Below are positions 1-30,744 of a stretch of 46,277 bases of DNA, one piece after another; the first letter of the stretch is position 1; every line of letters begins with the position of its first letter. The translations under genes were made by a program, and so were the position numbers. Under the pieces are notes generated by a model. That model was given only the letters and a program-made list of their open reading frames with translations, was not told where the DNA came from and made no database searches. The DNA is taken from positions 1 to 46,277 of the forward strand of contig JBHHUW010000003.1 in assembly GCA_046753945.1 (NCBI GenBank). The letters run 5' to 3'. The DNA comes from Thermodesulfobacteriota bacterium (GTDB lineage Bacteria > Desulfobacterota > GWC2-55-46 > JADFVP01).

Positions 1-542
1 AGTATGGGGTGCACCCTTACGTGGTCCTCGCCCTCGGACTCGGATTTATACTGGTCCCAGAGCTCTGCGGGCTGGTCCTCGTAATTCCATTTAAAATCCT
101 CGTCACGGGGGGAAAAGACCCTCTCCTTTGCGCGAATGCCGTGCTCGTCCCGTCTTATTCCCAGAAGCAGGGCCTTGAAACCGTGCTCTGCGATGGTCTG
201 CTTCAGGGCATTGGTCTTGAGCTCGTTGCAGCAATCGAGCTTGCTGCCCTTGCCGGGCCCCATGCCGCCTGCAATGGACTCTTCGTTTCGCCCAATGATG
301 AGGTCGAGACCATATTCCTTGGCGTAGTGGTCACGAAACTCATACATCTTCTTAAATTTGTATCCCGTATCAATATGTATGACAGGAAAGGGAATCTTGC
401 CAAAAAAGGCCTTCTGGCATAACCACAAGAGGGTGGTGGAGTCCTTTCCCACAGACCAGAGAAGCGCTATGTCCTTGTACTTGGCATAGGCCTCCCTGAT
501 GATAAAAATACTCTTGTTCTCAAGCATTGTGAGCTGGTCCAT
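1..542 (-). CDS. cysD: Sulfate adenylyltransferase subunit 2 (PAPS-reductase/PP-loop family), runs off the window edge
   Basis: Not in the ORF track. Manual minus-strand translation from ATG at 542 gives MDQLTMLENKSIFIIREAY...LLWSVGKDST...PFPVIHIDTG...GIRRDEHGIRAKERVFSPRD...DQPAELW...HVRVHPIL, all CysD hallmarks. AAGGAG RBS precedes the start. Confidence 0.93.
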   Translation of the reverse strand, partial: MDQLTMLENKSIFIIREAYAKYKDIALLWSVGKDSTTLLWLCQKAFFGKIPFPVIHIDTGYKFKKMYEFRDHYAKEYGLDLIIGRNEESIAGGMGPGKGSKLDCCNELKTNALKQTIAEHGFKALLLGIRRDEHGIRAKERVFSPRDEDFKWNYEDQPAELWDQYKSESEGEDHVRVHPI

Positions 543-566
543 AACTTCTCCTTAGTATTGGGTAAA

Positions 567-1919
567 TTAAGACGAAAAATAATCAAGTATGATGGCGGCA
601 AGTGACTCTATATGAAGTCGCTTGTCCGGGGCCGCCCGGTTGGGGAGGATAGAATGCGCGTCGTGCCTCGTATGCATGCCCGTGAACCTGCCGTTACCAA
701 AGACCTCCTCTTTCTTAAATGTGCTCTTAAGATCAAAGCCGTCGTTGGCAAGGCAGACCAGGTCAGGCCCCTTATCAGCCTCCTGGCCGCTGTATAGCTC
801 GTTATTTTCATATATCCGCTTTATGACATTCTCGCCCTCAAATGTAAGCGAAGCAAGGACCCGCTTTACCGCCTGAGTGACCCCTGCAACATCATCGGAG
901 CTAACCGCGCCCTCGGGGTACTTTCCCTCATGGTTCAGGTATATCCTTGCCGGCTCCATGGCAAAGGCCTTTGTGGGAGCCTTTATCTGCTCAAAATAAT
1001 CCCTGGACTCATCAAGATGGAGGAGGCCTTCTTTCTGAAAGAGGGTGTTTATGTAGACCTCTTTTTTTAGCTCCGTAAAGCCATGGTCCGACATGGTCAT
1101 AAAGAACCCCTCGCCGCCTGTAAGGTCATGAAAGCGGGCGAAGAGTGTGCCAATTATATCGTCAAGCTTCTTGTAAAAGTTAATAAAGCGGCCATGATAT
1201 TTATGTGTCTCGTCAAAGGCCGCGTCAAAGAAAAAGTGATGGAGCCGGTCTGTCTCCGTAATAACTGCGATAAAGAGAGCCCAGGGGTCCTCCACCATGA
1301 AGTGCTCGAAGGCCTCCACCCTGCGGTCAAGGACAAAGTCCACCTCCTCAAAAAAACCATCCGGGTCGGAGACGGCCTTTGTAGAGTCCACATCGGACCT
1401 GTAACCAATGGACTTCAGATAATCATAAGCCGAGGCAGGATAAGTGCCCTTTTCAAGGTCTATGCAGACAAAACCCGCCGTCAATATGCCGTTCATGGGC
1501 GCGGCCGGGTAGGTCTCCGGTACATTCATCACTACAGAGCGCAGGGGGTCAGGAAAGCGGTCTCCGTACCGGTTGGCAAGTGTGGATTTTTTCCCGCCGG
1601 CCGTGCCTCCGAGAATATCCCAGATAGAAGGAGCGCTTATATGTGAATAAGAAGGAAAGTACATGGAGTAGGCCCCGGGTTTCAGGTCCATGAAGCCGTA
1701 TATGCCATGCTCTCCCGGATTAGTGCCAGTCAAAAATGAAGCCCACGACGTTGATGATACGTCGGGTATGGAGGCGTCCATCTCGTGTAAGGTAAAACCG
1801 CCGGATAGTATCTCTTTTACGCGCGGCATAAGGCCCATATCCATATACTCTGAGACAAGGCCGCGGGAGACCCCGTCAAGCCCTACGGCAAGGCATCTTT
1901 TCTCTCTCTTTTCCGGCAA
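567..1919 (-). CDS. Alkaline phosphatase superfamily protein (type I phosphodiesterase/NPP-like, COG3379-like), short form without LGY tail
   Basis: Motifs GLDG, SIPDVSSTSWASFLTG.NPG.HGIYGF, ETDRLHH, MSDHGF, GMH; no signal peptide; TTG start after a G-rich RBS. Confidence 0.88.
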   Translation of the reverse strand: MPEKREKRCLAVGLDGVSRGLVSEYMDMGLMPRVKEILSGGFTLHEMDASIPDVSSTSWASFLTGTNPGEHGIYGFMDLKPGAYSMYFPSYSHISAPSIWDILGGTAGGKKSTLANRYGDRFPDPLRSVVMNVPETYPAAPMNGILTAGFVCIDLEKGTYPASAYDYLKSIGYRSDVDSTKAVSDPDGFFEEVDFVLDRRVEAFEHFMVEDPWALFIAVITETDRLHHFFFDAAFDETHKYHGRFINFYKKLDDIIGTLFARFHDLTGGEGFFMTMSDHGFTELKKEVYINTLFQKEGLLHLDESRDYFEQIKAPTKAFAMEPARIYLNHEGKYPEGAVSSDDVAGVTQAVKRVLASLTFEGENVIKRIYENNELYSGQEADKGPDLVCLANDGFDLKSTFKKEEVFGNGRFTGMHTRHDAHSILPNRAAPDKRLHIESLAAIILDYFSS

Positions 1920-2937: not shown

Positions 2938-3726
2938 TTATACCTTTTTCAAGGTCCTTTTCAAAGAATAAAAGTTATGGAAGGCGCCCTTAATGGCCGT
3001 CCTGTAAGCAAGCCCTGTTGTAAGGTGAGCGCTCCCCACCCTCTTTAAAGAAAGAGGGCACTCCCTTGCCGGATGACCGGCAAAGGCCGCCTTAAAGCCC
3101 TGCCTCTTAAGCTCTGCCATGACCCGTTCGTCAAATTCTCCGTATGGATAACAAAAGATAGGAGCACTCACCCCGAGCCTCTCCTCAATGGCGCTGCGGC
3201 TCTGATTCAGTTCTCTCTCAAGGTCCTTATCAGAGAGTCTCGTAAGATGGGGGTGAGAGACTGAATGGGACTGGAAATCAATGCCATATCTCTCCATTTC
3301 CTTAATCTTATCCCATGTTAGGAGCGGCAAGACAGGTATGCCGGGATCTCTTTCCCACGTAGAGGCCCTGGCCGTGAAGCCGGTAACAAGGAAGATGGTA
3401 GCCGTGAAGCCGAACTCTTTTAAGAGAGGATAGGCTACCTCGTAATTATTCCATAAGCCATCGTCAAATGTCAAGACAACGGCCTTCTCTGGCAGCGGCG
3501 TCCCGCCTTCAAGGGCATCCACCATACGCGCCGCCGTAACAGTCTCGTAACCGAGCCCCTTGATAATCGTAAGATGCCGCCTGAATATGCCTGGCGCTAT
3601 GGATACGGGGGACCCGCTCTCATCAAAGGAGTGGTATGTAATAACGGCCGGCCGGCGTGAGGGCCGTAAGGCCCCAAGGCCGTAGAGGCCGAGCATGATG
3701 CATTGTTTGAATAGAGGTTTTAACAC
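2938..3726 (-). CDS. Polysaccharide deacetylase (CE4, IcaB/PgaB-like)
   Basis: ITYH, LTFDDG, QSHSVSHPHL and FCYPYG motifs. Confidence 0.92.
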   Translation of the reverse strand: MLKPLFKQCIMLGLYGLGALRPSRRPAVITYHSFDESGSPVSIAPGIFRRHLTIIKGLGYETVTAARMVDALEGGTPLPEKAVVLTFDDGLWNNYEVAYPLLKEFGFTATIFLVTGFTARASTWERDPGIPVLPLLTWDKIKEMERYGIDFQSHSVSHPHLTRLSDKDLERELNQSRSAIEERLGVSAPIFCYPYGEFDERVMAELKRQGFKAAFAGHPARECPLSLKRVGSAHLTTGLAYRTAIKGAFHNFYSLKRTLKKV

Positions 3727-4514
3727 TTTTTTCTGATAAGGGCCCGGTGCTTACGGTAGAAGAGTACGTATGACTTCGTATGCAGGTAGGCCATCTTGTT
3801 AAAAGGATTTTTTCGCGTAATCCCCTGCAGGAGATGCCTTACCACAAAACCCGGGTAAGCCACTACTTTCCACCCGCCCTTCTCCATGCGTGCGCAGTAA
3901 TCGGCGTCCTCGAAACCGTAAAACATGTTCTCGTCAAGGAGCCCCACCTTCTTTACGGCCTCTTTTCTTAATAACTGAAAGGCCCCTTCCACAAAATCCA
4001 CGACTCTCGGCCCGGTCCGTTGCCAGCTCTCAAGATGGTGTTCCCTTAATATTTTGCTATCGCGCACAATGCCGGCCATATTCAGTCTTCGAAGGAACAC
4101 ATGTATGGGCCTCGGATATGTCCTTGTAGAGGAGTGGATTACATTATCCTCCGATACGAGTGTGCAACCCAACAGGCCAACGTCCTCGTTGGAGTCCATG
4201 TAGGAGATAAGGTCGCCGAAATTCTTTGAGACTACCTCCGTATCGGCGTCGAGGATGAGGATATAACGGCCCGCGGCCTTCTCTAATAACTGATTGCGCG
4301 CCGGGGCCACGCCTCTATTCTCAGTATTATGAAAGAGTTTCACACCGGGATAGGCCTTTTCAACAGCCTCGGGGGTTCCATCCGTGGAGGCGTTGTCCAG
4401 GACCAGGACCTCGAAGTCAATATCATCACCTAAGCATTCATATAGAGACTTCAGACAGTTAAGGAGCAGGTCTCTACAGTCCTTAACTATAATTGTCACG
4501 GAAAGTTCCGGCAT
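3720..4514 (-). CDS. Glycosyltransferase family 2
   Basis: VLDNASTDGT, LILDAD, GLLDENMFYGFEDADYC; ATG at 4514 preferred over TTG at 4520. Confidence 0.92.
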   Translation of the reverse strand: MPELSVTIIVKDCRDLLLNCLKSLYECLGDDIDFEVLVLDNASTDGTPEAVEKAYPGVKLFHNTENRGVAPARNQLLEKAAGRYILILDADTEVVSKNFGDLISYMDSNEDVGLLGCTLVSEDNVIHSSTRTYPRPIHVFLRRLNMAGIVRDSKILREHHLESWQRTGPRVVDFVEGAFQLLRKEAVKKVGLLDENMFYGFEDADYCARMEKGGWKVVAYPGFVVRHLLQGITRKNPFNKMAYLHTKSYVLFYRKHRALIRKKC

Positions 4515-4538
4515 ATTCAACCTGATCTATTGAAAATG

Positions 4539-6223: not shown

Positions 6224-7669
6224 TTAAAAGAGTTTCTTCATCATGGAGCGTGATGCGTAATAAAACTCCTTTGGATGTACCACGCGCCATAGATTGCGAG
6301 CTATAAACCGCGGTCTCAGATAAAAACTGAAGTTGGCATGGCGGACAAGGCCCTCGAGATCATCTGTGGAAAGATTGGGATAGCTGTGAATCGCCTCCTT
6401 TCTCACGTCCCTGGGCACATAATCGCCGTGAACAAACCAACCTTCTTTCTTTGCTATCTCGTAAAAATCCGTCCCCGGAAAAGGGCTTGCCAGGCTATAC
6501 ATTACGCCATCGGGATCGAGTTTTTTTACTATCTCTATATTTCTTAATATTGATTCCTTTGTCTCAAGGGGGCTTGAGCCGAGGAGCATATTGAGCTTTA
6601 CGATGATACCGTTTTCCTTGAGAAGCCTTATGGCCTCCTCTATCTTCTCTATCTCTATCTCTTTTTTAACGTACTCGAGGACAGGTTCCTCAAAGCTCTC
6701 TGCGCCTATGTCCACGAACATGCAATTGGCCTTTTTCATGGCCTTGATAATATTCTCGTTAAGATAATCAGCGCGGGCAAGACAACCCCAGCTCATACCA
6801 AGAGGGCCAATCCTCTCGCAGATCTCAACGGTCCTCTTCTCACCCCATGGAAACTGGTCGTCAAGGATATTGACGGCGCGAAACCCCTCGTCACGAAGTA
6901 TTTTAAACTCACGCTCTATGTTCTCCGGAGAGCGCTGTCTTACGGCGGGCTTGCTTCCACCGGAACCCTTCTTATACTCCAGCTCTCTGGCGAAAGAGAG
7001 AGAGTTGGGCACGCAGTATATGCACTTGTGGGGGCATCCTCTTGAGGTGAGGGCCGCTGTTACGGGCCTCACACCGAACTTGGGGTTATAGTACTTGCTC
7101 CTGTCTATAAGATGGCGCGCTGGAAATGGCAGCGAGTCAAGGTCATGAAGCAAGGGCCGTGAGTTATTGTGGACGGCCACACCTCCCTTCATATAAGATA
7201 GCCCCTCTATAGAGGCCATTTCGCTGCCCTTGAAAATGGCCTCGGCAAGCTCCGTTAGCGTCAGATCCATCTCTCCGCGTATGGCAAAGGAAGACTCATC
7301 GAGAAGGAATACATCCGTTGTATAGGTAGGCGCTGGCCCCACGAAGGCCACGGGCACATTGCCCCGGAGCTCCCTTATCAGGCCGTGGGCAATCCTGTCC
7401 GTCTCCACGGCGAGGTTTACCGTGTAAAAGCAGTACATATCACTATCATCGCCGGATAGAAAGCGGGTAAAATCCTCCTTCTGCCAGCCCTCTACCGGGC
7501 CGTCTATATAGCGAACCTCATATCCTGCCTCCTCAAGTACGGCGGCAGATGTAAGGGCGAATATATTGGGTATGGGGTATATGCCGTAATTACAGCCAAA
7601 GACCCTCTCAACGGGCTGATTGCCGTCAAGGGGCGGGGGCATTATGAATGTGATCTTCTTTCCACTCAT
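6224..7669 (-). CDS. Cobalamin-binding-domain radical SAM protein
   Basis: N-terminal B12-binding-like domain (VGPAPT, IRGEMD), TSRGCPHKCIYC cluster motif, PFPGT motif. Confidence 0.9.
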   Translation of the reverse strand: MSGKKITFIMPPPLDGNQPVERVFGCNYGIYPIPNIFALTSAAVLEEAGYEVRYIDGPVEGWQKEDFTRFLSGDDSDMYCFYTVNLAVETDRIAHGLIRELRGNVPVAFVGPAPTYTTDVFLLDESSFAIRGEMDLTLTELAEAIFKGSEMASIEGLSYMKGGVAVHNNSRPLLHDLDSLPFPARHLIDRSKYYNPKFGVRPVTAALTSRGCPHKCIYCVPNSLSFARELEYKKGSGGSKPAVRQRSPENIEREFKILRDEGFRAVNILDDQFPWGEKRTVEICERIGPLGMSWGCLARADYLNENIIKAMKKANCMFVDIGAESFEEPVLEYVKKEIEIEKIEEAIRLLKENGIIVKLNMLLGSSPLETKESILRNIEIVKKLDPDGVMYSLASPFPGTDFYEIAKKEGWFVHGDYVPRDVRKEAIHSYPNLSTDDLEGLVRHANFSFYLRPRFIARNLWRVVHPKEFYYASRSMMKKLF

Positions 7670-7688: not shown

Positions 7689-8831
7689 TTAAAACGCAGC
7701 GTATATATCCTTAAGCTCCGTAGCGGCCCTGTCCCAGTTAAGCTCTTCTTTTATCAGGGCCAGCCCCTTCTTCGAGGCCCCCCGCCTGAACCTGTCATCC
7801 GTTATGAACTTATTCATAGCCGAGACAATGGAGCCCATATCATTCTCATCAACTACAATACCGCAACCCTTCTCTCTTATTACAGCACCGAGCCCGCCTA
7901 TGTCCGTCATTACAACCGGAACGCCGTTTGCCAGCGTATCGTAAAACTTCGTGGGCGTAATATTAGTAAACCAGTCGTTCCTTCTGTAAAGGAGAAGCGA
8001 GACATCTATCTTCTCATAAAGGGCCTTCATCTCCTGCGCCCCGTAGGGTCCGTAATACTCCACCAGCGGCCCCATCTCTCTTAATACCCTCTCGAACTCG
8101 GGCCTGTATGCCTCCACCACCCGTCCGGCCAGAAACAATCTTGTATCCGGGTATTCTCGAACTACCTCCCGCATGGCACCAAGGGCCTCCTCAAGGCCTA
8201 TGTCCGGGTATATGGTGCCTATTCTCCCAAAAACAAGCCCCCGCCCTTTTTTCCTGTGGGGAGCATCAACTATTATCTCACTTACCGGCCAGTTACCTAT
8301 CTCCTTTACAGAACTTATGCCCCTTGCGAGAAACTTCTCCACCTGAAAAGTATTGGCTACTATGACGGCATCGGCGCGTCTTGCCAGAAAAAATTCCAGG
8401 CCGTTGACAAAAAAAAGCAGAAAATTCCAACGTTTCGGCCACAGGGCATAGTAATTTGGCTCGTGTGCGTCATATACGAGTTTACAGCTCCGTGTTAATT
8501 GTATCATAAAACCCAGCGGCATAACATCTAAATTATGACAATGTACTATATCGATGTCCTCTCTCATGAGCCTGAGGAAGGCCTTAATCCAGAAAGCCAG
8601 AAGGAAAAAGGCCTGAACCGGGCCGCGCATCTCCCCTGACCGCACCCTCACCCGTCTTATCTCAATACCACCGCAGCTCTCCTCAAGGGGCGCCTCGCAC
8701 TTTCTATCCCACCCCATAATAAGAACCCGGTGCCCCTCCTCAAGAAGGGTCCGGGCCTCGCTCGTAATCCGGGGATACCGCCCCTGAGTGGGCAGATAAC
8801 TCTGCGATAATATTTTTACGATCTTGGCCAT
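7689..8831 (-). CDS. Glycosyltransferase family 4
   Basis: DIVHCHN, VYDAHE, PTKFYDTLANGVPVVMTD GT-B motifs. Confidence 0.9.
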   Translation of the reverse strand: MAKIVKILSQSYLPTQGRYPRITSEARTLLEEGHRVLIMGWDRKCEAPLEESCGGIEIRRVRVRSGEMRGPVQAFFLLAFWIKAFLRLMREDIDIVHCHNLDVMPLGFMIQLTRSCKLVYDAHEPNYYALWPKRWNFLLFFVNGLEFFLARRADAVIVANTFQVEKFLARGISSVKEIGNWPVSEIIVDAPHRKKGRGLVFGRIGTIYPDIGLEEALGAMREVVREYPDTRLFLAGRVVEAYRPEFERVLREMGPLVEYYGPYGAQEMKALYEKIDVSLLLYRRNDWFTNITPTKFYDTLANGVPVVMTDIGGLGAVIREKGCGIVVDENDMGSIVSAMNKFITDDRFRRGASKKGLALIKEELNWDRAATELKDIYAAF

Positions 8832-10513: not shown

Positions 10514-11382
10514 AAAAACCTATTTTTTTTAGCCGCAGCTAATATCTCAAACTCCCTGTGGGTTATCTGCTCCAGAGATGTCAGGCCTCTTACAAGCAGC
10601 TTCTCTATCTTGTTACCTCTGGCCTTTACCACCGGAATAGTCTTTTTTCTGAATTCTACTATTTGAAATCCAGCCTTATTGAAGAGCAAATTCAAGGTCT
10701 GCTGAGAATAATAAAAAAGGTGGAACTCGTGGTAGAGCTTTTTTACAGGGTACTTAAATATGCCGGCTGTCGACTTATAGCACACATGCGCCATGAGCCT
10801 CATAAACGATTGTTCGTTCGGTGTATCAAAAAGCAATATCCCATCATCAGCGAGTATTCGTCTTATCTCCTTCAACTCATCTAAAGGGTCTTCAAAATGC
10901 TCTATTACATCCCATAAGGTAATGACATCAAAGTAGGCGTCTGGAAAATCAGCGCTCTTTATCGAACCCGCATAACATTTAAATCCGAACTGTTCGCTTA
11001 CGAATTTGGCGGCGAACTCAGAGACATCAACACCGACGACATCCCACCCCCGTTTCTCTGCAAGAGCGAGAAATACCCCGGTTGCGCATCCTACATCGAG
11101 GAGCCTCCCGGGACTCCTATACGACTCTATGAGGTCAAGCCCCTTTTTAAAGTCCGTAATGTTCTGGTTCTCGATTCCATCAAGAGGACTGACAATCGAG
11201 TTTCTGAAAAAATATTCTTCACGCTCCTTAAAATATTCAGAAGAGTATACTTGCGAAGCATCTTTGCCGGAAGACTTTATGTCCAATGCCACTAACCCAC
11301 ATGAAAGACACTTCAGGACATTGAACTCTTTAATTTTATATTTTATCTCAAAGTTAGTTGATTTGCAGAGCTTACAATGCAT
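10510..11382 (-). CDS. Class I SAM-dependent methyltransferase with N-terminal CxxC...CxxC zinc ribbon
   Basis: CKLC...CLSC, LLDVGCATG, FDVITLWDVIEH, TPN motifs. Confidence 0.9.
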   Translation of the reverse strand: MHCKLCKSTNFEIKYKIKEFNVLKCLSCGLVALDIKSSGKDASQVYSSEYFKEREEYFFRNSIVSPLDGIENQNITDFKKGLDLIESYRSPGRLLDVGCATGVFLALAEKRGWDVVGVDVSEFAAKFVSEQFGFKCYAGSIKSADFPDAYFDVITLWDVIEHFEDPLDELKEIRRILADDGILLFDTPNEQSFMRLMAHVCYKSTAGIFKYPVKKLYHEFHLFYYSQQTLNLLFNKAGFQIVEFRKKTIPVVKARGNKIEKLLVRGLTSLEQITHREFEILAAAKKNRFL

Positions 11383-19670: not shown

Positions 19671-19671
19671 T

Positions 19672-20388: not shown

Positions 20389-20397
20389 ATCCTTTCC

Positions 20398-23415: not shown

Positions 23416-24426
23416 TCAATAACCTAACGCATGCGCCTTGTTGTATATGTCCTCTCGCATCCGGGACATCATCTCCAAATAATTTTTGTTAGTGCCATCG
23501 CATGACGCACATGTTGGGTATTCACGAAAGTCTTTTGAGAGATGCGCCTTTCTTAATTTCGAAAAGTCATCGTTACGCCAAAGCTCCACTACCTTGCTCT
23601 CGAGTGCGGACCCGACCTTGAGGTCCCCGTTAATATCCGCGCAGCAGACAGTTGCGACACCGTCCCAGAAAATCATAAGCCTGTCAAAGGGCTGATGACA
23701 TGGCCTCTTCTCCTGCCTGGCCTTATCGATGGGCGCATGGTTGTCAACGTTTCCGTACTGGGCAACAGGCAGCACGTTTATCCTGTGTACGTGCTTTCCC
23801 CACTGGTCGAAGACCTGCAGCACCTCATCCTTTGTTTCTTCCATATATACGGTATTTATAACGACATGCGGTTTTTCCTGCCCAGCCGCATTTCTCATTT
23901 CTATGAACCTGCCAATATTCTCCGTGACCTCCTTGAACTTGGCGTTTATCCTGATTTTTTCGTAGGTCTCAGCCGTGGAACCGTCCACTGAAAATGTCAG
24001 CGAGTCCAGCCCAGAATGTATGAGGGCCTCACACTTCTTCTCATCAAGCAATGTGGCGTTTGAAGTGAAATATACCCTCGGTATCCCTTTGTCTTTTGCG
24101 TAACGTATCATCTCTATAAGATCCGGGTGTATCATGGGCTCGCCGAACCTGTTGAGTTTTACCTCCGGCACCCCGATCTCGGCCGCCTCGTCAATTACCT
24201 TCCTGAAAAGGTCCATGCTCATGAGGCCGCTCCCCCTGGACATGGAGGCCCTGTCGCACATTATGCAATCGAGATTGCATATATCCGTGAGCTCTATGTA
24301 CACGGTTGGAGGCACCTCGGGCAGGATATGGAACTTTTTCTTAAACCTCCTCATGGCCACTGCGCCGCTCTCGGCCAGGCCAAGCTTCCTGGCCTTGTTG
24401 ATTTTTCTTAAAATTCCACCGGACAT
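23416..24426 (-). CDS. Radical SAM protein with SPASM/Twitch auxiliary Fe-S domain
   Basis: IELTDICNLDCIMC, FGEPMIHP, C-terminal CHQPF...VCCAD...CASC. Confidence 0.92.
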   Translation of the reverse strand: MSGGILRKINKARKLGLAESGAVAMRRFKKKFHILPEVPPTVYIELTDICNLDCIMCDRASMSRGSGLMSMDLFRKVIDEAAEIGVPEVKLNRFGEPMIHPDLIEMIRYAKDKGIPRVYFTSNATLLDEKKCEALIHSGLDSLTFSVDGSTAETYEKIRINAKFKEVTENIGRFIEMRNAAGQEKPHVVINTVYMEETKDEVLQVFDQWGKHVHRINVLPVAQYGNVDNHAPIDKARQEKRPCHQPFDRLMIFWDGVATVCCADINGDLKVGSALESKVVELWRNDDFSKLRKAHLSKDFREYPTCASCDGTNKNYLEMMSRMREDIYNKAHALGY

Positions 24427-24435
24427 CACAAACCC

Positions 24436-26088
24436 CTATAGATAGCCAAGGCCTTTAAGCCTTTCTTCCAGTTCAGCTTCCTCTTCTTCTGAGTACGAAA
24501 CAGCCTGGCCTTTTCTTTCATCCAGGGCCTTTTCGTAAACCGCTTTTTTCTTTTTCGAAAAATCATCCTTGAAAATTCCCGTCAGGACTTTTCCATCCAG
24601 GTCATCAGGAATGGGTATATCCAGCAGATAGAGAATCGTTGGTAAAATATCGGCAATGCCCGCGCCTTCTATTGATTCGCCGCTGCGGATATCCCGGCCG
24701 TAGGCCAGGAGAATGCCCTCGGTCCTATGTGTACCCGAACCAGTCCTCCAGCTACGAGGCTCAAAAACAGATTCAGACGGCTGGACATCCGACAAGTATT
24801 CTCCGTTTTTCAGAAAGAAGATGATATCCGGGGCAGAATCAACGCAGGACCCCTCGTATACCTCTTCACGTTTAAAGACATGGCTTACCATCTTTTCCCC
24901 GGTCTCCGGGTGTACGATACCTTTAAGGACTTTGATCACTTCATCTCTACGGGCGTCATATTCCTCGGGTTCGACAATACCGCCCGGGTTTCTACCCTTG
25001 AGGTTAATGTAGATGCCCTGCTCAGTGTTAGAGGCCGCATAAGCCGCCGTCTTTGACCAGTCTATACACTTGAGAAAATCATAGGCGCTCATCCTCTTGA
25101 CCTTCTTCATAACGGCCGGCCCTATCTTTCCCCATAACTTGAACACATCAACACTCTTGATGACCTTCTTTATGCCGGATCTTCCCTTACCCCGTCTTTT
25201 CAAATTAGCGAGGGCCTCAAGGTCGAACTTGAGATATCCCAACTCCGAGAGAAGCGTATTTATGAATACCTTTCCGGTTAGGGGACCAAACCCGTGATCA
25301 GACATTATTAACAATGACGTATCCGCCTCCAAGCCGTCAAACATTTCGCCTATGAAGCCGTCAACCATCATGTAATATTTCTTTATCAACTCCGTTACGC
25401 GCTTTTTTTTAGCGGTGGCGTCTTGATCAGGAAAAATATACTCCCAGAGACAATGCTGTATCCTGTCCGTACCTATGAACACCGTAACAAAAAAATCCCA
25501 GTTACAACGACCGCAGAGGTAGCGGTTGGTCTTTATTCTCTCCTCGGTGCAACGGATGAGGTTTTTAAGAAAATCTTCTATCTCGCTCTCATCGTACCTT
25601 TGCCACCAGACATCCTGCACATAATTAATGCCCTTGTCACGGAGCTCTGCCGCCAGACTCTCGGGCTTCATGAAGTCGTCAACACTCTTTGGCGTGAGCA
25701 TGCCTGATATCATGTAGCCGTTTACATCGGGAACGGGATAGGTTAGCGGCAGGTTTACGGCACATATTTTTTTATCGTGCCTGGTGAGAAGAGAGAAAAC
25801 TGTTTCGGAGGCGATAGTATCGTAGCTTACGATCTTCATGCCTTCACCTCCGGGGTCAGGCCTTACAAAATCGTACACCCCGTGCTTACCCGGCAGCTTA
25901 CCGGTCATGAATGTTGTCCATGCCGGCCCGGTTACAGGTGGAATCGTTGACTGCAACTCCCCAGTTACGCCATCATCTGCCAGCCTCTTGAGGTTTGGCA
26001 GCAACCCCTCATCCATCCACGGCCTTAAAACGGTAAAGCTGGCGCCATCAAGCCCTATAATCATTACCTTTTTTATTTTTTTGGCCAT
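24436..26088 (-). CDS. Alkaline phosphatase superfamily protein (COG3379-like) with C-terminal LKGLGY tail
   Basis: GLDGAS, STIPPVTGPAWTTFMTG, GTDRIQH, MSDHGF, SGTHR; ends YSEEEEAELEERLKGLGYL. Confidence 0.9.
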   Translation of the reverse strand: MAKKIKKVMIIGLDGASFTVLRPWMDEGLLPNLKRLADDGVTGELQSTIPPVTGPAWTTFMTGKLPGKHGVYDFVRPDPGGEGMKIVSYDTIASETVFSLLTRHDKKICAVNLPLTYPVPDVNGYMISGMLTPKSVDDFMKPESLAAELRDKGINYVQDVWWQRYDESEIEDFLKNLIRCTEERIKTNRYLCGRCNWDFFVTVFIGTDRIQHCLWEYIFPDQDATAKKKRVTELIKKYYMMVDGFIGEMFDGLEADTSLLIMSDHGFGPLTGKVFINTLLSELGYLKFDLEALANLKRRGKGRSGIKKVIKSVDVFKLWGKIGPAVMKKVKRMSAYDFLKCIDWSKTAAYAASNTEQGIYINLKGRNPGGIVEPEEYDARRDEVIKVLKGIVHPETGEKMVSHVFKREEVYEGSCVDSAPDIIFFLKNGEYLSDVQPSESVFEPRSWRTGSGTHRTEGILLAYGRDIRSGESIEGAGIADILPTILYLLDIPIPDDLDGKVLTGIFKDDFSKKKKAVYEKALDERKGQAVSYSEEEEAELEERLKGLGYL

Positions 26089-26104: not shown

Positions 26105-27667
26105 TTATATCCTTTGAAAACGCAGCCTTAACATACCGGCAATATCACTTAACTCCTGCACCCTTAGCACCTTACATGAAAACAAGTATGTAACCAGTCC
26201 GATGAAGATTAACAAGACAAGGCCAAAGAGCTGTCCGTAGGCCGGAAATTGTGAGAAAGCAAGGGCTGTGTAATCCTTCACGCCCCACATAACCGCCACC
26301 ATCACCAAGGTGCCTGTACCGACCCTCATGAGTGTATTGAGTAAGTGCCGTGCACCTAATGATCCTATCTTTTTAGTGAGCAACCGGTGCAGAACCAGGC
26401 TTTTTACAAAGGCGATTATGGATGTTGCCAGTGCAAGACCTGCATAAGAAAAAACCCTTATCAGTAAGATGTCCAGAATAATGTTGAGCACCGAGCCCAG
26501 CACGTTAGCCTTGATAGGTGTTAAGGTGTCCTGCATACTGTAAAAGACCCCGTTGATCAAAATATTAAATGAGAAGGCCATAAGCCCAATGGAATAAAAG
26601 ATAATGGCCGTGCTTGTAATGGCCGAGGCATTGTCATCGAATGCGCCCCTCTTAAACAAGATATCCACAATCGGTTCACACAGAACAATCAGTCCTCCGG
26701 TAACGGGTAAGAAGAAGAAGGCCAGCATCCCCATCGACTTATTGAAGAGCCTCTTTATCTCTGCAAAATTACCGGTTGCGCTTAGCCTCGACATAATCGG
26801 CATCATCGATTTGCCCAAAGCCAGTGGTAAAAGCCCGCAAAACAACATGACCAGCTTGTCCGCATACGCAAGGGCGGATATATAGCCCATACCGATTGTC
26901 GAGGCGAACAACCTGTCGACCATCACATCGAACCTGTTTAGCGAAAGCCCCATGAAGCGCGGGCCCATAAGCTTGGCGGTCTTTCGAACGCTCTTATCCT
27001 TAAGGTCGATTGAAAAGCTAAAGCGCCTATTGTTCCTGTATAGGATAGCATGTAGAATGATGCACTGCAGCAATAGGCCTGCAAGCACGCCGATAGCGGC
27101 GGAGATGATTCCCAGCCCATCAGATAGCGCCAAGATAAAGACTAATACACTCGACCCGAATACAAGAGAAACCAGGGCCGGCACTGTGAAGTTTTGGTAG
27201 GAATTAAATATAGTCGCGGGTAGAGAAGCAGACGCGCTCAGCAGAATAACAGGCGACATAATACGCAACATAAGCGTTGCAAGGACTCTGCCCTCCGGTG
27301 ACATGCCTGGCGCCAGCAAATATGTAATCTGGGCGGCAAAGACGAAAACAAGCACGGTGAGACAGAAGAGCAGTAGCGTCAGAATCGTAAAAAACTTGTT
27401 TGCGAAATTCCATGCATCTTCCTCGCCCCTCTTTTCCATCTGTTCCACAAAAATCGGCAAGAACGACCATGAGAGAACGGTCTCACCCATTATCACAAAA
27501 AGTAGCGGCAGGGTCTGGGCGATAAGCAGCGCATCGATCTCTGTTCCAAGGCCGAATATCTTTGCTAAAACTATCAACTGGGCAAACCCCAGCACGCTTA
27601 CAAGGAGCCTCGCAATGGAGTTGACTCCGGCGGCCTTCACTATCCCCTGCTTAGATAATCCCTTCAT
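26105..27667 (-). CDS. MurJ/MviN-like lipid-linked oligosaccharide flippase (MOP family)
   Basis: Multi-TM protein with SFLPIF, ISALAYADKL, LFKRGAFD, FYSMQDTLTP and GLALATSI motifs. Confidence 0.88.
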   Translation of the reverse strand: MKGLSKQGIVKAAGVNSIARLLVSVLGFAQLIVLAKIFGLGTEIDALLIAQTLPLLFVIMGETVLSWSFLPIFVEQMEKRGEEDAWNFANKFFTILTLLLFCLTVLVFVFAAQITYLLAPGMSPEGRVLATLMLRIMSPVILLSASASLPATIFNSYQNFTVPALVSLVFGSSVLVFILALSDGLGIISAAIGVLAGLLLQCIILHAILYRNNRRFSFSIDLKDKSVRKTAKLMGPRFMGLSLNRFDVMVDRLFASTIGMGYISALAYADKLVMLFCGLLPLALGKSMMPIMSRLSATGNFAEIKRLFNKSMGMLAFFFLPVTGGLIVLCEPIVDILFKRGAFDDNASAITSTAIIFYSIGLMAFSFNILINGVFYSMQDTLTPIKANVLGSVLNIILDILLIRVFSYAGLALATSIIAFVKSLVLHRLLTKKIGSLGARHLLNTLMRVGTGTLVMVAVMWGVKDYTALAFSQFPAYGQLFGLVLLIFIGLVTYLFSCKVLRVQELSDIAGMLRLRFQRI

Positions 27668-27674: not shown

Positions 27675-29897
27675 CTATATCCTGAACTGCTCTTTAACCT
27701 GGCATGGTATAGGATCCCTTACCTTATTTAAAACGAATCCGGCCATCGTGGCCCCTGCGTTCTCGAACTTTCTCAAAGGTCTTTTAAGGTCATCGATACT
27801 ATCTCTCTCGAATTCAACTGTAACAACAACCCGGTCCACTGCGGCAGAGAGTGATATTGTGTCCTGCGACGACGCTACAGGCGCGTCTATTATCACCAGG
27901 TCGAATTCAGTCCTGATATCATTCAAAAACTGCCGCATCCTATCATTCAACAGAATGTACTCATCTGTGTTGCTCTTCTTACCGGAGATAAGAAGATGCA
28001 GGTTCTGATTGTATTCCATGACGACATCCTCGGCCTTCATCCCGCCAAGTAACTCGGCCAGCCCATAGCCATCGTGAACCCCCACCCTTTCGGCAAGCGT
28101 CGGTTTGTTAAAGTCTGCTTCTATCAGCATCACCTTCTTGTTAAACCTGGCTGCCTTCTCTGCCACCTTTTGCGCAACTGTGCTCGTGCCGCAGTTAGGT
28201 TTAACCCCGGTCACCAGAAAGACCTTTGATTTCTCTGCTTCAGAATAGGCCAGGAGGCCCCTTGCAACCCTGTTCACCGAATCATCGAATCGTTCCATAG
28301 TCGCGGCCGTCTTAAGAAATCTCACTATGCAACGCTCGTCATCCGTTGCGTAAGGGATATGGCCAAAGACGTTGCTGCCGGTTTTGTTCTCTAACTCATC
28401 GGCGGTCCTGAATGATTCATTCCAATACTCCAGGAAAAACGCGAGCCCCAGAGCCCAGGCACTTGAAAGTATCATACCTACAATGATGTTTAGAATCCAA
28501 AGAGGCCAGCTCTGGTCGGCATCATCAAATAAAAATGCCGAATCAATTATCTGGACCCCCTTCTCATTTATGACCGTATTCTTAAGCACCCTTAGCTCTT
28601 CAATCTTTTTTTTGAGATTCCCGTATATGCCCTCGTGTACCTCCAAGTCCCTGGTTAAATTACCCAGTTCGACCTCTCGCATCGGATAATCTGCAAGCAT
28701 CCTGTTCAGACCGGAGACAACATGATTTATTCCCTCTTCCTTGGCATTCAAGGCGAAGTCATCTATCTCAAGACTGACGAGCCTGCTCGCAAGGTCCATA
28801 TATATGGGATTTCTCTCCTCCTTCTTGTTTTGAAGCGTCAACTCTGCCTCTTGCTTCAGACGCTTCGTCGCGGCTGCTATCTGGTTCTTTAACGTTACAA
28901 CTTCCGGGTGCTCCTCAGTCTTTTCCGCCAAAAGGGCCGCGAGTTTTAGCTCTTGGTCTTTGATATCGGTCTTAAGTTCATTGGCCAGAGGATTCATGAC
29001 AATCAAGCTGGAGGCGGTCTCCACCTCCTTCTGATTGTCTATCTGTCTTTTAACCTCTTTAATTCTCTCCTCCGTCTCCTTTCTCGTTATCCTTGTGGCG
29101 GAGAGATTGGACTGCAGGTCCGCCACCCTCTCTATGTCAAACTTGATTTGCTCATCAATACTTACCAACAAATTCTCTTCCCTGAACTTCCTCAGGTTTG
29201 CTTCTGCCCTGTCGAGATTCTCCTTAGCCTTTGCAGCCTGGCTATTGATAAAGTCATATGCCTTTGTAGCTTCCTGCTTCGTAAGGTTAAGTGTCTTGAT
29301 CTGCAGCTTCTCAGCCAAACGGTTTGCAATGTCCATAGAAAGCTGAGGCGTCTCGCCCCATATGGAAATGTTTATTATCGAGGTATCCTCCTCAACCGCT
29401 ACATCCAGTGCATCATTCTGAAAATCATCTATCGCCTCAGCAAGAAAATTCTTCTCTCCAGGAGAGAGTATTCCAAGCCAGACGATAAAGTCCATAGGGT
29501 AACCGATCGTCACGTTAGCCATCACCCCTTTGATCCTGTCCCTAAGTGACTTGGGGTGCTTTCTTTTCTCCTTCAGACGTTTATCGAGCTGAAACTCCTT
29601 GACTATCTCCTCAGACATCGACCTGCTTGTCAGGATATCCACAAGATTCTGTGCAGGATGCACCGTATGGATCTCGCCGGAAGGTTTTGCCATCTCATCA
29701 AAAAGGACTATCTGCTGTCTTGGATTTGGCTCCATCAAGACAAGCGCCGTGGCTTTCCATACGGGTGAAACCAAAAATGTCCCAAACAAAAAGGCAAAAT
29801 AAGTAATGACAAATATAGCAATTATCAAAAACTTTCTTTTGAAAATCGTATATAATATATTAAAAATAACTTCTCTTTTTGATAATTGGTCTTCCAA
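27675..29897 (-). CDS. Wzc/GumC-like polysaccharide co-polymerase with degenerate BY-kinase domain
   Basis: N-terminal TM plus P.W.A.A motif, long coiled coil with HPEV, second TM, C-terminal P-loop domain (GVKPNCGTST, LIEADF, IIDAP). Confidence 0.9.
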   Translation of the reverse strand: MEDQLSKREVIFNILYTIFKRKFLIIAIFVITYFAFLFGTFLVSPVWKATALVLMEPNPRQQIVLFDEMAKPSGEIHTVHPAQNLVDILTSRSMSEEIVKEFQLDKRLKEKRKHPKSLRDRIKGVMANVTIGYPMDFIVWLGILSPGEKNFLAEAIDDFQNDALDVAVEEDTSIINISIWGETPQLSMDIANRLAEKLQIKTLNLTKQEATKAYDFINSQAAKAKENLDRAEANLRKFREENLLVSIDEQIKFDIERVADLQSNLSATRITRKETEERIKEVKRQIDNQKEVETASSLIVMNPLANELKTDIKDQELKLAALLAEKTEEHPEVVTLKNQIAAATKRLKQEAELTLQNKKEERNPIYMDLASRLVSLEIDDFALNAKEEGINHVVSGLNRMLADYPMREVELGNLTRDLEVHEGIYGNLKKKIEELRVLKNTVINEKGVQIIDSAFLFDDADQSWPLWILNIIVGMILSSAWALGLAFFLEYWNESFRTADELENKTGSNVFGHIPYATDDERCIVRFLKTAATMERFDDSVNRVARGLLAYSEAEKSKVFLVTGVKPNCGTSTVAQKVAEKAARFNKKVMLIEADFNKPTLAERVGVHDGYGLAELLGGMKAEDVVMEYNQNLHLLISGKKSNTDEYILLNDRMRQFLNDIRTEFDLVIIDAPVASSQDTISLSAAVDRVVVTVEFERDSIDDLKRPLRKFENAGATMAGFVLNKVRDPIPCQVKEQFRI

Positions 29898-29979
29898 AAA
29901 CGTTCCTATAGATTGAATGTTACTAAAAATTGCGCCTGGTTAGGCGGCACAAATTCTCAAGAACCTACGCCTTTTAAGC

Positions 29980-30744
29980 TCAACGGGAGGGCACTGTAAC
30001 ACTTGTGCTACTCCCGGATTCGATCCTCTGCCCGATAAAATAACCGGACTCCATGGAGACAATGGGCGATATGATTGTGGAAAGGTGCCCGAAAAACCTA
30101 TCGACATTGGCAATGAATGTCCTTGGGACATAAACTATATCGCCGCGCTGAAGTAAAAAGTTGTCCTTGAGGTCTCCATCCGACAAGGCGCTTTCAAGAT
30201 CCAACTTCTTGAGCGTGGGGTCTTTCATCCCGCCCCGGATAAGCAACACACTGCGCTGTTTGGCGTCAAGCGTAAACCCCCCTGCATTTGAGATGACGTC
30301 AAGTACGGTCATTACACCGTCAGCCTGGAAAAAACCGGGTCTTCTAACCTCGCCAAGAATGGTCACCTTCTGGCTCTGCGTGGAGAGAAACCCTATGGTT
30401 ACCTGCGGATCTCTTATATATCGGGCGAGGCGGCCGGTAATATTATCTCTCAGTTCATAGATGCTTACACCGGCAGCCTGTATGTCACCTATCAAAGGAA
30501 AGCTTATCCGTCCTCCGGGACTTACCACCACCGTTCTCTTAAGATCGTCGTTACGATAGACCATTATCTCCAGTTTGTCACCGGGGCCTATGATAAACTC
30601 AGAAACCCTCGCAGCTCCTTCAAAGGCGCGGGAATCTACATTCTCTCCGGCATCGATAACACCATGCTCGTGGTTTCCGATAGCGCATCCCTGTACAACA
30701 AGAAGCATTACCAGGATCAAGGCTGGCAAATATTTTGTTTTCAT
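29980..30744 (-). CDS. Wza-like polysaccharide export lipoprotein
   Basis: Lipobox VQGC; IGPGDKL, GRISFPLIG, GEVRRPG and LQRGDIVYVP (Poly_export + SLBB); ATG 30744 with GGAG RBS. Confidence 0.92.
   Translation of the reverse strand: MKTKYLPALILVMLLVVQGCAIGNHEHGVIDAGENVDSRAFEGAARVSEFIIGPGDKLEIMVYRNDDLKRTVVVSPGGRISFPLIGDIQAAGVSIYELRDNITGRLARYIRDPQVTIGFLSTQSQKVTILGEVRRPGFFQADGVMTVLDVISNAGGFTLDAKQRSVLLIRGGMKDPTLKKLDLESALSDGDLKDNFLLQRGDIVYVPRTFIANVDRFFGHLSTIISPIVSMESGYFIGQRIESGSSTSVTVPSR

What the first reader, a model, noticed from the sequence alone, without database searches (positions are those of the whole stretch)
1..30744. Candidate sulfated-EPS pathway using AlkP-fold transferases instead of classical sulfotransferases
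Seen: one co-oriented Wza/Wzc/flippase/Wzy locus contains four cytoplasmic COG3379-like AlkP proteins interleaved with the glycosyltransferases. It ends in cysD, 24 bp after the fourth paralog, and I recognise no PAPS-dependent sulfotransferase in the window. All four keep the metal ligands (GxDG, DxxxH, SDHG, GxH) and a Ser/Thr at the nucleophile position, and lack the C/SxPxR formylglycine motif. Known: CysD(N) makes APS, and AlkP-fold enzymes such as LtaS and EptA act as transferases through Ser/Thr intermediates. Inference: these paralogs move sulfate (or another anionic group) from APS/PAPS onto different positions of the repeat unit.
Basis: partly seen in the sequence, partly recalled or inferred. 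Interest (0 to 1): 0.85.

Follow-up and report, generated by a model that had tools for sequence, protein, structure and literature searches.

The report
Phosphatase-fold enzymes tied to sulfate activation
A polysaccharide-export operon carries four cytoplasmic alkaline-phosphatase-fold enzymes and ends in the genes that activate sulfate, and relatives of these enzymes sit next to or are fused to sulfate-activating enzymes in many bacteria, which makes them good candidates for an unrecognised kind of sugar-sulfating enzyme.

Summary
A minus-strand Wza/Wzc/MurJ/Wzy operon (30780 to 1) contains four soluble PF01663 paralogs with intact metal ligands and a Ser/Thr nucleophile. It ends in cysD 24 bp after the fourth paralog.

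The window is a whole contig. Its left end overlaps contig C18 by 55 bp. C18 carries the rest of cysD, then a cysN without a kinase domain, then type II secretion genes. It carries no cysC and no sulfotransferase.

The link to sulfate activation is general:
- The short paralog type is next to CysD or a CysD-like protein in 46 of 54 assessable metagenome loci.
- In a 201-genome phylum sample, 28 of 50 genomes with the family have a copy within 5 kb of CysD, Sat or APS kinase.
- 107 of the 120 best homologs of one clade are APS-kinase fusions, including one in Desulfomonile tiedjei DSM 6799.

Seven of nine genomes with the CysD-linked module show no APS kinase, and eight of nine show no Sulfotransfer_3.

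Most likely (about 0.5) these enzymes transfer sulfate from APS or PAPS to glycans. No activity was tested. Classical sulfotransferases sit beside long paralogs in three genomes, and the active site looks like a phosphodiesterase.

Sulfatase-like AlkP-superfamily sulfotransferases (Agl30/Agl31) are already known in Halobacterium, so this would be a new variant of a known kind.

The parts
29980..30780 (-). Wza-type polysaccharide export protein (Poly_export + SLBB)
   Evidence: Pfam
27675..29897 (-). Wzc-type chain-length determinant / tyrosine autokinase (Wzz, GNVR, AAA_31)
   Evidence: Pfam
26105..27667 (-). MurJ/MATE-type flippase
   Evidence: Pfam, PF03023 E 1.5e-76
24436..26088 (-). AlkP1: long (clade L) PF01663 paralog, cytoplasmic, Thr nucleophile, C-terminal ...RLKGLGYL tail
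23416..24429 (-). radical SAM/SPASM protein; not conserved in the syntenic loci L001 and L002
22359..23414 (-). GNAT acetyltransferase
17625..19670 (-). exported AlkP-superfamily protein (Metalloenzyme/Phosphodiest/Sulfatase N-terminal part + BNR), signal peptide
14977..16116 (-). GT4 glycosyltransferase
13296..14957 (-). AlkP2: long (clade L) PF01663 paralog; AlphaFold model pLDDT 90; tail ...KLKGLGYI
11372..12766 (-). Wzy-type polymerase (Wzy_C)
10510..11382 (-). SAM-dependent methyltransferase
8876..10513 (-). AlkP3: long (clade L) PF01663 paralog, Ser nucleophile; aligns end to end with the AlkP part of the D. tiedjei APS-kinase fusion (29% identity, E 2e-58)
7689..8831 (-). GT4 glycosyltransferase
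6224..7669 (-). B12-binding radical SAM enzyme
3720..4520 (-). GT2 glycosyltransferase
2938..3726 (-). polysaccharide deacetylase
567..1919 (-). AlkP4: short (clade S) PF01663 paralog, Ser nucleophile, no C-terminal tail; AlphaFold model pLDDT 96; nearest solved folds are PhnA and NPP
3..542 (-). cysD, first 180 codons; continues on contig C18 (55-bp exact overlap), followed there by cysN (408 aa, no APS-kinase domain)
34862..36616 (-). candidate priming enzyme: NTP_transferase-hexapeptide-Bac_transf fusion, upstream of the operon

Best explanation
The locus makes a Wzx/Wzy-type exopolysaccharide. Its repeat unit is probably decorated with sulfate, besides methyl and acetyl groups.

CysD and CysN at the end of the operon make APS. 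The four cytoplasmic AlkP-fold paralogs are the enzymes that use it. Inferred mechanism: the Ser/Thr at the two-metal site attacks the sulfur of APS (PAPS in lineages where the enzyme is fused to or adjacent to APS kinase). AMP or PAP leaves, and the sulfuryl group passes to a sugar hydroxyl of the lipid-linked repeat unit.

The family splits into three clades:
- Clade S (AlkP4): short, almost always beside CysD.
- Clade K: beside Sat or APS kinase, often fused to the kinase.
- Clade L (AlkP1-3): in glycan loci among glycosyltransferases.

Clades L and K carry a C-terminal tail like that of CysD.

Shown here: gene content, operon continuity, conserved linkage and fusions, fold, and active-site residues. 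Inferred: the donor, the attack at sulfur, the acceptor, and that the polymer is sulfated.
For: 1. Operon continuity. C3 and C18 overlap by 55 identical bases, and cysD-cysN follow AlkP4. The order AlkP3-GT4-rSAM-S8-GT2-deacetylase-(repeat protein)-AlkP4-cysD-cysN is kept in G001 and G002.

2. Linkage to CysD. Of 80 metagenome loci found with the short type, 54 have a CysD of 60% identity or more adjacent, 7 have a CysD-like protein and 19 have none. Among the 54 loci with at least 500 bp on both sides the figures are 39, 7 and 8. The usual operon is [Pst-like ABC importer or TauE]-AlkP-CysD-CysN.

3. Non-homologous partners. Sat is directly upstream of an AlkP in G035, G012 and G089, and nearby in G137.
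   - APS kinase is adjacent in G012, G089, G153, G026, G099, G064, G024, G161, G045, G058, G157, G187 and G137.
   - It is fused in G175, G144 and G080 (kinase first) and in G094 and G017 (AlkP first).
   - By my hand comparison of the place tables, 28 of 50 genomes with the family, in 13 families, have a copy within 5 kb of CysD, Sat or APS kinase.

4. Fusions. 107 of the 120 best homologs of the AlkP part of one fusion carry PF01583 + PF01663. An atlas cluster of 61 proteins of about 881 aa carries ATP-sulfurylase + PF01663 (a lead only).

5. No other known APS user in the CysD-linked type. Among the 9 sampled genomes with this module, APS kinase was not found in 7 (G000, G046, G047, G083, G116, G147, G008). 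PF13469 was not found in 8.

6. An operon in G137 reads CysC-Sat-DASS transporter-AlkP-PHP. Every step of a sulfation module is there except a transferase.

7. Several diverged paralogs interleaved with glycosyltransferases fit acceptor-specific modifying enzymes.

8. Tail motif. L..LGY[LIMVF] at the C-terminus occurs in 66 of 66 long AlkPs and 32 of 32 short-type CysDs. In G000 the stricter form is found in only 4 of 4,996 ORFs: AlkP1-3 and CysD.

9. Precedent. Agl30 and Agl31 are AlkP-superfamily proteins required and sufficient for N-glycan sulfation in haloarchaea (PMC11980604; abstract, passages and Discussion read).
Against: - No activity, intermediate or polymer chemistry was or could be tested.
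- The fold and the complete two-metal ligand set are those of NPP/PhnA enzymes, which attack phosphorus. On APS that would release sulfate.
- Classical sulfotransferases coexist. 30 of 50 genomes with the family have PF13469, against 44 of 151 without it (hand count). In G024, G064 and G099 a Sulfotransfer_3 gene lies between two long paralogs.
- At genome level CysD is not enriched: 13 of 50 with the family against 33 of 151 without.
- 22 of 50 genomes have no activation gene within 5 kb of any copy.
- 8 of 54 assessable metagenome loci have no CysD.
- The Pst-like importer could mean phosphate rather than sulfate. Its permease passes the PstA cut-off and its binding protein is far below the PstS cut-off.
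- G000 is 57% complete, so absences in it are weak.
- G002 has a marginal PF00685 hit on another contig (20.6 bits).
- G059, in the same family as G000, has an APS kinase in another glycan locus.
Confidence: 0.5

Rival explanations
1. Accessory hydrolase of sulfate activation. The short and kinase-linked AlkPs hydrolyse a product or by-product of the pathway and so pull or tidy the unfavourable ATP-sulfurylase reaction. Candidates are PPi, PAP, or excess APS/PAPS. The long paralogs in the EPS operon would then be unrelated phosphodiesterases.
For: - The fold and metal site are typical of nucleotide pyrophosphatases/phosphodiesterases.
- Linkage to all three activation enzymes (CysD, Sat, APS kinase) is what a pathway helper would show.
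- Classical sulfotransferases sit beside long paralogs in three genomes.
- From recall, not from a call: fusions of ATP sulfurylase with pyrophosphatase are known in some eukaryotes.
Against: - A PAP phosphatase role cannot hold where no APS kinase is found: 7 of 9 genomes with the CysD-linked module, five of them 97-100% complete and one (G008) 91%.
- A PHP-family protein, a family that from recall includes PAP phosphatases, follows the AlkP in G035 and G137.
- Two different AlkP clades flank one kinase gene in six genomes, and four paralogs lie in one EPS operon. A housekeeping hydrolase needs one copy.
- AlkP4-type proteins are 40-60% identical where the neighbouring CysD is 73-85% identical.
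- CysN already drives APS formation with GTP.
Confidence: 0.25
2. Phospho-group or other anionic-group transferases unrelated to sulfate. The paralogs would cleave nucleotide-activated donors (CDP-glycerol, CDP-ethanolamine, UDP-sugar and the like) and put phosphodiester-linked substituents on the repeat unit. In this reading cysDN is in the operon only for sulfur supply or by chance.
For: - NPP-like chemistry is attack at phosphorus.
- LtaS/EptA-type AlkP transferases work this way (recalled).
- The operon has other decorating enzymes: methyltransferase, GNAT and radical SAM.
- The importer beside many AlkP-CysDN modules is Pst-like.
Against: - It does not explain adjacency to CysD in 46 of 54 assessable loci, to Sat, or the fusions to APS kinase in 107 of 120 homologs.
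- It does not explain the CysD-like tail on the long paralogs.
- No gene for making a CDP-alcohol donor was seen in the operon.
- In other loci TauE takes the place of the Pst-like importer.
Confidence: 0.1
3. Chance or purely regulatory neighbourhood in this window. The four paralogs have no shared role with cysDN and are cytoplasmic phosphatases of a stress or phosphate regulon.
For: Genome-level co-occurrence with CysD is not enriched: 13 of 50 against 33 of 151.
Against: - Physical linkage is seen in 13 families of one phylum and in dozens of metagenome loci.
- There are two independent fusion orders with APS kinase.
- 47 of 50 genomes with the family have Sat or CysD, against 99 of 151 without it (hand count).
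Confidence: 0.03

Closest known systems
Agl30 (VNG1056C) and Agl31 (VNG1057C), N-glycan sulfotransferases of Halobacterium salinarum (PMC11980604)
   Same: - They are AlkP-like core superfamily proteins encoded in a glycan-assembly gene cluster.
- One is soluble and cytoplasmic.
- Several paralogs each serve a different sugar position.
- They have no resemblance to PAPS-type sulfotransferases.
- Their donor and mechanism are unknown.
   Different: - The paper describes them as sulfatase-like (nearest structures are S1 sulfatases; IPR017850).
- The proteins here are NPP/PhnA-like PF01663 with a Ser/Thr nucleophile and two-metal ligands. They have no C/SxPxR motif and no PF00884 match above threshold.
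- I could not fetch the archaeal sequences, so direct homology beyond the superfamily was not tested.
- Their role rests on deletions and heterologous expression. Nothing has been tested here.
Nucleotide pyrophosphatase/phosphodiesterases (Xac NPP, ENPP1-7) and phosphonoacetate hydrolase PhnA
   Same: - Same Pfam family, and the best solved folds for the AlkP4 model (Foldseek E 2e-15 to 1e-10, TM 0.5-0.7).
- Same metal ligands, and the nucleophile is at the same position.
   Different: - Only 12-16% identity.
- The proteins here are cytoplasmic.
- They have extra inserts and, in the long forms, a CysD-like C-terminal tail.
- They are linked or fused to CysD, Sat and APS kinase, which is not described for NPP or PhnA.
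NodPQ/NodH-type and synechan (xss) sulfation modules (recalled; the synechan paper was seen only as a citation)
   Same: A dedicated copy of sulfate-activation genes is placed with glycan-building genes to feed sulfation of a secreted glycan.
   Different: Those systems make PAPS (CysC domain or gene) and use classical P-loop-like sulfotransferases. The window's module has no kinase and no such transferase.
LtaS / EptA / OpgB AlkP-fold transferases (recalled)
   Same: They are AlkP-fold enzymes that act as transferases through a covalent Ser/Thr intermediate.
   Different: They are membrane-anchored with an extracytoplasmic catalytic domain, and they use lipid donors and transfer phospho-alcohols. 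The paralogs here have no transmembrane segment.

Membership tests
PF01663 type I phosphodiesterase / NPP / PhnA branch of the alkaline phosphatase superfamily | Profile match above the curated cut-off | tested here: met
   123-135 bits against a cut-off of 23 for all four paralogs
PF01663 type I phosphodiesterase / NPP / PhnA branch of the alkaline phosphatase superfamily | Six two-metal ligands (Asp, Asp/His, Asp/His, His) and a Ser/Thr nucleophile | tested here: met
   D14, D208, H212, D264, H265 and H454 are invariant. T/T/S/S align with the PhnA nucleophile position, which is Thr in 3szy and Ala in the variant chain 3t02
PF01663 type I phosphodiesterase / NPP / PhnA branch of the alkaline phosphatase superfamily | Fold | tested here: met
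   AlkP4 model pLDDT 96.3. Top Foldseek hits are 1ei6, 3szy, 7n1s, 2gsn and ENPP1/4/5. The AlkP2 model (pLDDT 90) was not searched
PF01663 type I phosphodiesterase / NPP / PhnA branch of the alkaline phosphatase superfamily | Phosphodiester or pyrophosphate hydrolysis | not testable with these tools
   Needs an enzyme assay
Classical PAPS-dependent sulfotransferases (PF00685, PF13469, PF03567, PF17784) | Profile match / P-loop-like PAPS-binding fold | tested here: not met
   No such family among the Pfam hits of the four paralogs or of any scanned window ORF. No six-frame hit in G000
Type I (formylglycine) sulfatases, PF00884 | C/SxPxR maturation motif and a PF00884 match | tested here: not met
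   No [CS]x[PA]xR motif. Only sub-threshold C-terminal hits to SGSH_C or arylsulfatase models
LtaS/EptA-type membrane AlkP transferases | N-terminal multi-pass membrane domain with an extracytoplasmic catalytic domain | tested here: not met
   The metal-ligand motif starts at residues 10-16. The maximum 19-residue hydropathy is 1.07-1.49
CysD/CysN sulfate adenylyltransferase | CysD profile above cut-off; CysN GTPase partner | tested here: inconclusive
   - CysD: NF003587 scores 241 bits (fragment) and 356 bits (G001 full length) against a cut-off of 195, but it is below the TIGR02039 cut-off.
- CysN of G001 and G002 scores 329-331 bits against the TIGR02034 cut-off of 336.
- The G000 CysN has GTP_EFTU domains and no PF01583.
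- This is a short, divergent CysDN clade.
Wzx/Wzy-dependent exopolysaccharide pathway | Wza, Wzc, flippase, Wzy polymerase, priming transferase and glycosyltransferases in one locus | tested here: met
   The flippase is MurJ/MATE-type. The Bac_transf priming enzyme lies 4 kb upstream at 34862-36616
AlkP-superfamily glycan sulfotransferases (Agl30/Agl31 type) | Loss of the gene lowers glycan sulfation; expression confers sulfation | not testable with these tools
   The only evidence here is genomic context.

The most novel reading that the evidence does not exclude
A PAPS-independent sulfation system built wholly from AlkP-fold enzymes. The short clade-S enzyme takes the sulfuryl group from APS at the CysD(N) complex as a sulfo-Ser intermediate or hands it on. 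The tailed clade-L enzymes dock on the same activation machinery through a C-terminal peptide that mimics the CysD tail, and each sulfates one position of the lipid-linked repeat unit. Clade K does the same with PAPS where it is fused to APS kinase. That would make a family of thousands of proteins now labelled 'alkaline phosphatase family protein' a second major class of bacterial carbohydrate sulfotransferases.
Probability: 0.2. Interest if true: 0.92.

Novelty: new variant of a known kind. Interest (0 to 1): 0.8.

Why it matters
Bacterial sulfated polysaccharides are thought to be rare. One reason is that they are looked for through PAPS-type sulfotransferase genes.

If this NPP-like family transfers sulfate, sulfated glycans are far more widespread in anaerobic bacteria than annotation suggests. 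The family is present in 50 of 201 sampled genomes of this phylum, and searches showed thousands of homologs.

It would also provide:
- enzymes that may sulfate with APS rather than costly PAPS;
- a natural case of a phosphodiesterase active site turned to sulfuryl transfer;
- a candidate mechanism for the haloarchaeal Agl30/Agl31 enzymes.

Even if the enzymes prove to be hydrolases, a conserved, often fused partner of CysDN, Sat and APS kinase would be a missing piece of sulfate activation. A cultured carrier, Desulfomonile tiedjei DSM 6799, makes the question directly testable.

Tried and rejected
- **APS-kinase replacement.** I considered that AlkP4 replaces APS kinase, for example as a PPi-dependent 3'-phosphotransferase. 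I rejected this as a general reading because clade-S and clade-K AlkPs sit beside or are fused to a canonical APS kinase in 18 genomes.
- **Kinase fused to CysN in AlkP-free genomes.** I considered that short CysD in genomes without the AlkP is followed by a CysN-CysC fusion. Pfam showed the long ORFs are only N-terminally over-called GTPases with no PF01583.
- **Sulfatase-maturase role for the radical SAM/SPASM gene.** This gene lies beside AlkP1. There is no C/SxPxR motif, its best NCBIfam hits are far below cut-off, and it is absent from the syntenic loci L001 and L002.
- **Complex prediction.** Complex prediction of CysN (A8) with AlkP2 (A5), meant to test the tail idea, scored 0.02 against a mark of 0.32. 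The tool's verdict was 'no answer', so it counts neither way.
- **Longer-protein search.** The search for homologous proteins with 'longer' for AlkP4 found one unrelated-architecture protein only. The Sat-AlkP fusion therefore rests on the atlas lead alone.
- **RNA families.** Rfam gathering search of the window gave 0 matches.
- **Literature.** Searches for COG3379, PAPS-independent sulfotransferases, AlkP-family with sulfate adenylyltransferase, and APS kinase with pyrophosphatase fusions found nothing on this family apart from the Agl30/Agl31 paper. What I read:
  - PMC13390465: passages only. It uses classical sulfotransferases.
  - PMC5770160: passages only. It gave nothing on the CysD tail.
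  - Supplementary files: none opened. Those of PMC11980604 may hold sequence or structure details that bear on homology.
- **Tree.** The careful tree did not finish in the time allowed, so I used the quick tree.
- **Hand counts.** The counts 28 of 50, 47 of 50, 99 of 151, 30 of 50 and 44 of 151 are my own comparisons of the printed place tables, not script output. One search left 75 matches unlisted, which does not affect the genome-level counts.

Full report
**What is in the window**

The 46,277-base window is a whole contig (C3) of a 1.40-Mb assembly that is 57% complete. Its nearest public loci are MAGs labelled Thermodesulfobacteriota.

From 30780 down to base 1 a single co-oriented minus-strand operon encodes, in order:
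- Wza, Wzc and a MurJ-type flippase
- AlkP1
- a radical SAM/SPASM protein and a GNAT
- two LVIVD proteins
- an exported Metalloenzyme+BNR protein
- a GH42-like protein
- GT4
- AlkP2
- Wzy and a methyltransferase
- AlkP3
- GT4, a B12-radical SAM enzyme and an S8 protease
- GT2, a deacetylase and a secreted repeat protein
- AlkP4
- the first 180 codons of cysD

A Bac_transf priming enzyme and a LuxR regulator lie upstream. The right-hand third of the window is a separate Wzm/Wzt ABC-type glycan locus.

**The four paralogs**

All four match PF01663 at 123-135 bits, and the other three are 29-37% identical to AlkP1. They keep every two-metal ligand. At the position that aligns with the nucleophile of phosphonoacetate hydrolase (Thr in 3szy, Ala in the variant chain 3t02) they carry Thr, Thr, Ser and Ser.

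None has a formylglycine motif, a signal peptide or a membrane segment. The AlkP4-cysD gap is 24 bp.

**What lies left of the window**

The reverse complement of the first 55 bases of C3 is identical to the first 55 bases of contig C18. C18 begins with the rest of cysD. It goes on with a 408-residue cysN that has EF-Tu-type domains and no APS-kinase domain, and then with a type II secretion cluster, gspG to gspD.

So the operon ends AlkP4-cysD-cysN. No cysC and no sulfotransferase follows. The same order, from AlkP3 to cysN, is kept in two other MAGs, G001 and G002.

**Is the link to sulfate activation more than local?**

*Metagenome loci.* A scan with a profile of the short (AlkP4-like) type gave 80 loci.
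- 54 have a CysD of 60% identity or more directly beside the AlkP gene, usually 13-285 bp downstream.
- 7 have a more distant CysD-like gene just upstream.
- 19 have neither, and 11 of those end within 500 bp of the AlkP gene.
- Among the 54 loci with at least 500 bp on both sides, 46 have CysD or CysD-like.

*Typical operon.* The usual layout is a Pst-like ABC importer, or in its place a TauE permease, followed by AlkP, CysD and CysN. It often converges on a glycan-modifying operon with a DUF2304 protein, a PpgS/AglJ-like GT2, a deacetylase, a hexapeptide transferase and a long AlkP. A long AlkP lies within the fetched flanks in 17 of the 80 loci.

*Phylum sample.* In an even sample of 201 genomes of the phylum, 50 have the family at E 1e-30 or better. 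I compared the printed places of that search with those for CysD, Sat and APS kinase. By that comparison, 28 of the 50 genomes, from 13 families, have a copy within 5 kb of one of these three genes. This is a hand count.
- Sat, which is unrelated to CysD, lies directly upstream of an AlkP in G035, G012 and G089.
- APS kinase is flanked by two AlkP genes in six genomes.
- It is in one reading frame with an AlkP in five genomes, in both domain orders.

*Fusions.* Of the 120 best database homologs of the AlkP part of one such fusion, 107 carry PF01583 together with PF01663. They include the protein annotated ApsK of Desulfomonile tiedjei DSM 6799. AlkP3 of the window aligns with the AlkP part of that protein over its whole length (29% identity, E 2e-58). 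A protein-atlas cluster of about 881-residue proteins combining ATP-sulfurylase and PF01663 is a further lead that I could not confirm.

**Three clades**

A quick maximum-likelihood tree of 55 members (midpoint drawing, SH-aLRT only, careful search unfinished) gives three groups.
- *Clade S* (support 99) holds AlkP4, all CysD-linked and CysD-like-linked proteins, and one member of each kinase sandwich.
- *Clade K* (support 89) holds the Sat-linked proteins, the kinase-first fusions and the other sandwich member.
- *Clade L* (support 92) holds AlkP1-3 and the long forms of glycan loci.

The two AlkP-first fusions sit on a long separate branch.

**What else could use the APS?**

Nine sampled genomes have the CysD-linked module: G000, G059, G046, G047, G083, G116, G147, G008 and G140.
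- APS kinase was not found in seven of them.
- Sulfotransfer_3 was not found in eight.
- Sulfotransfer_1 was not found in the seven searched for it (G000, G059, G046, G047, G083, G116, G008), was found in G140, and was not searched in G147.
- Apart from G000 (57%) and G008 (91%), these genomes are 97-100% complete.

In those genomes a PAP phosphatase has no substrate, and no known enzyme in the locus consumes APS.

In G137 the operon reads CysC-Sat-DASS transporter-AlkP-PHP protein. That is a full sulfation module lacking only a transferase, if the PHP protein is a PAP phosphatase as some members of that family are (recalled).

**Fold**

The AlkP4 model is confident (pLDDT 96.3). Its nearest solved structures are phosphonoacetate hydrolase and bacterial and animal NPPs, with TM 0.5-0.7 and 12-16% identity. 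The AlkP2 model has pLDDT 90, a helical insert and a poorly ordered linker before a terminal helix.

**An unexplained tail**

The long AlkPs end in an acidic run followed by ...[KR]L[KR]xLGY[IVLM].
- The short-type CysD ends ...QKLRSLGYM.
- Canonical CysD (1zun_A) ends ...KKRQGY plus one residue.
- The loose pattern occurs in 66 of 66 long AlkPs, 119 of 120 fusion-clade hits, 115 of 120 AlkP2 homologs and 32 of 32 short CysDs.
- It occurs in 0 of 65 clade-S AlkPs and 0 of 29 CysNs.
- In G000 the strict pattern occurs in 4 of 4,996 ORFs, and all four lie in this operon.
- CysD-like proteins without a CysN neighbour keep it.

This suggests a shared docking site. I could not identify the partner.

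**Interpretation**

The linkage to three non-homologous enzymes whose only common feature is APS/PAPS chemistry is strong evidence that the family works in sulfation or sulfate activation. So are the two fusion orders and the CysD-like tail. I put that at about 0.85.

The specific reading as sulfuryl transferases rests on four points:
- elimination, since many genomes with the module show no other APS user or transferase;
- paralog multiplicity, and interleaving with glycosyltransferases;
- the G137-type module;
- the precedent of Agl30/Agl31, AlkP-superfamily proteins whose deletion abolishes, and whose expression confers, N-glycan sulfation in haloarchaea (PMC11980604).

Against this reading:
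- the active site is that of a phosphodiesterase;
- classical sulfotransferases coexist in 30 of 50 genomes with the family, and lie between long paralogs in three genomes;
- 22 of 50 genomes show no close linkage;
- nothing biochemical is known.

I give the transferase reading 0.5, an accessory hydrolase 0.25, an unrelated phospho-group transferase 0.1 and mere neighbourhood 0.03. The remainder is unassigned.

**Novelty**

My five literature searches found no paper on this PF01663 family in sulfation. Because AlkP-superfamily sulfotransferases of the sulfatase-like branch are already published, I class this as a new variant of a known kind. It concerns a different branch of the superfamily, in bacteria, with explicit coupling to CysDN, Sat and APS kinase and possibly APS as donor.

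Noticed in passing
window 24436-24500, 13296-13360, 8876-8940 (C-termini of AlkP1-3) and G000 C18:3-317 (C-terminus of CysD): The long AlkPs and CysD share a C-terminal tail, ...[KR]L[KR]xLGY[IVLM]. In this genome it occurs in 4 of 4,996 ORFs. It is universal in clades L and K and in short-type CysD, and absent from clade S and from CysN. The partner is unknown.
   Followed up: partly
window 37848-46207 (+ strand): A second glycan locus of the ABC-transporter type: methyltransferase, a PMT_2+TPR protein of 1009 aa, Wzm, Wzt with a Wzt_C domain, another methyltransferase and a GT4. It runs off the contig end. In the relative G059 the only APS kinase lies between rml-type genes and the Wzm/Wzt homologs.
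   Followed up: partly
window 17625-22351 (- strand): Three exported proteins lie inside the EPS operon: an AlkP-superfamily Metalloenzyme domain fused to BNR repeats, and two LVIVD beta-propeller proteins. They are absent from the syntenic loci L001 and L002. They may be periplasmic polymer-processing enzymes.
   Followed up: no
window 2110-2895 (- strand): A secreted 261-residue protein made of lysine- and asparagine-rich repeats of about 11-13 residues (...NPxVAK...). It has no real family match. It is conserved beside AlkP4 in G001 and missing in G002.
   Followed up: no
window 34375-34779 (+ strand): A fragment with an IS66 C-terminal element match lies between the EPS operon and its likely priming transferase. 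A GH42/GH39-like paralog of the operon's GH42-like gene is at 32793-34205.
   Followed up: no
L048:4288-5292, L105:3710-4558, L045:650-1498 and like genes in 16-28 metagenome loci: A Pst-like ABC importer stands upstream of AlkP-CysD-CysN. Its binding protein scores far below the PstS cut-offs (88.6 against 206.6 bits). In other loci a TauE permease takes its place. It may be an unrecognised sulfate importer.
   Followed up: partly
L022:9109-9939, L023:3652-4389, L077:7155-7979 and others: CysD-like proteins (35-51% identity to CysD in alignment A9) lack a 23-residue insert and have no CysN neighbour. They keep the PP-loop, the ERxGRxQDKE motif and the tail, and are always paired with a clade-S AlkP. 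They may be a GTPase-independent ATP sulfurylase.
   Followed up: partly
G000 C3 left end; G002 C8 and C170: Assemblies of two different MAGs break inside cysD, and a third breaks just after cysN. This hints at strain variation or a repeat at this point.
   Followed up: no
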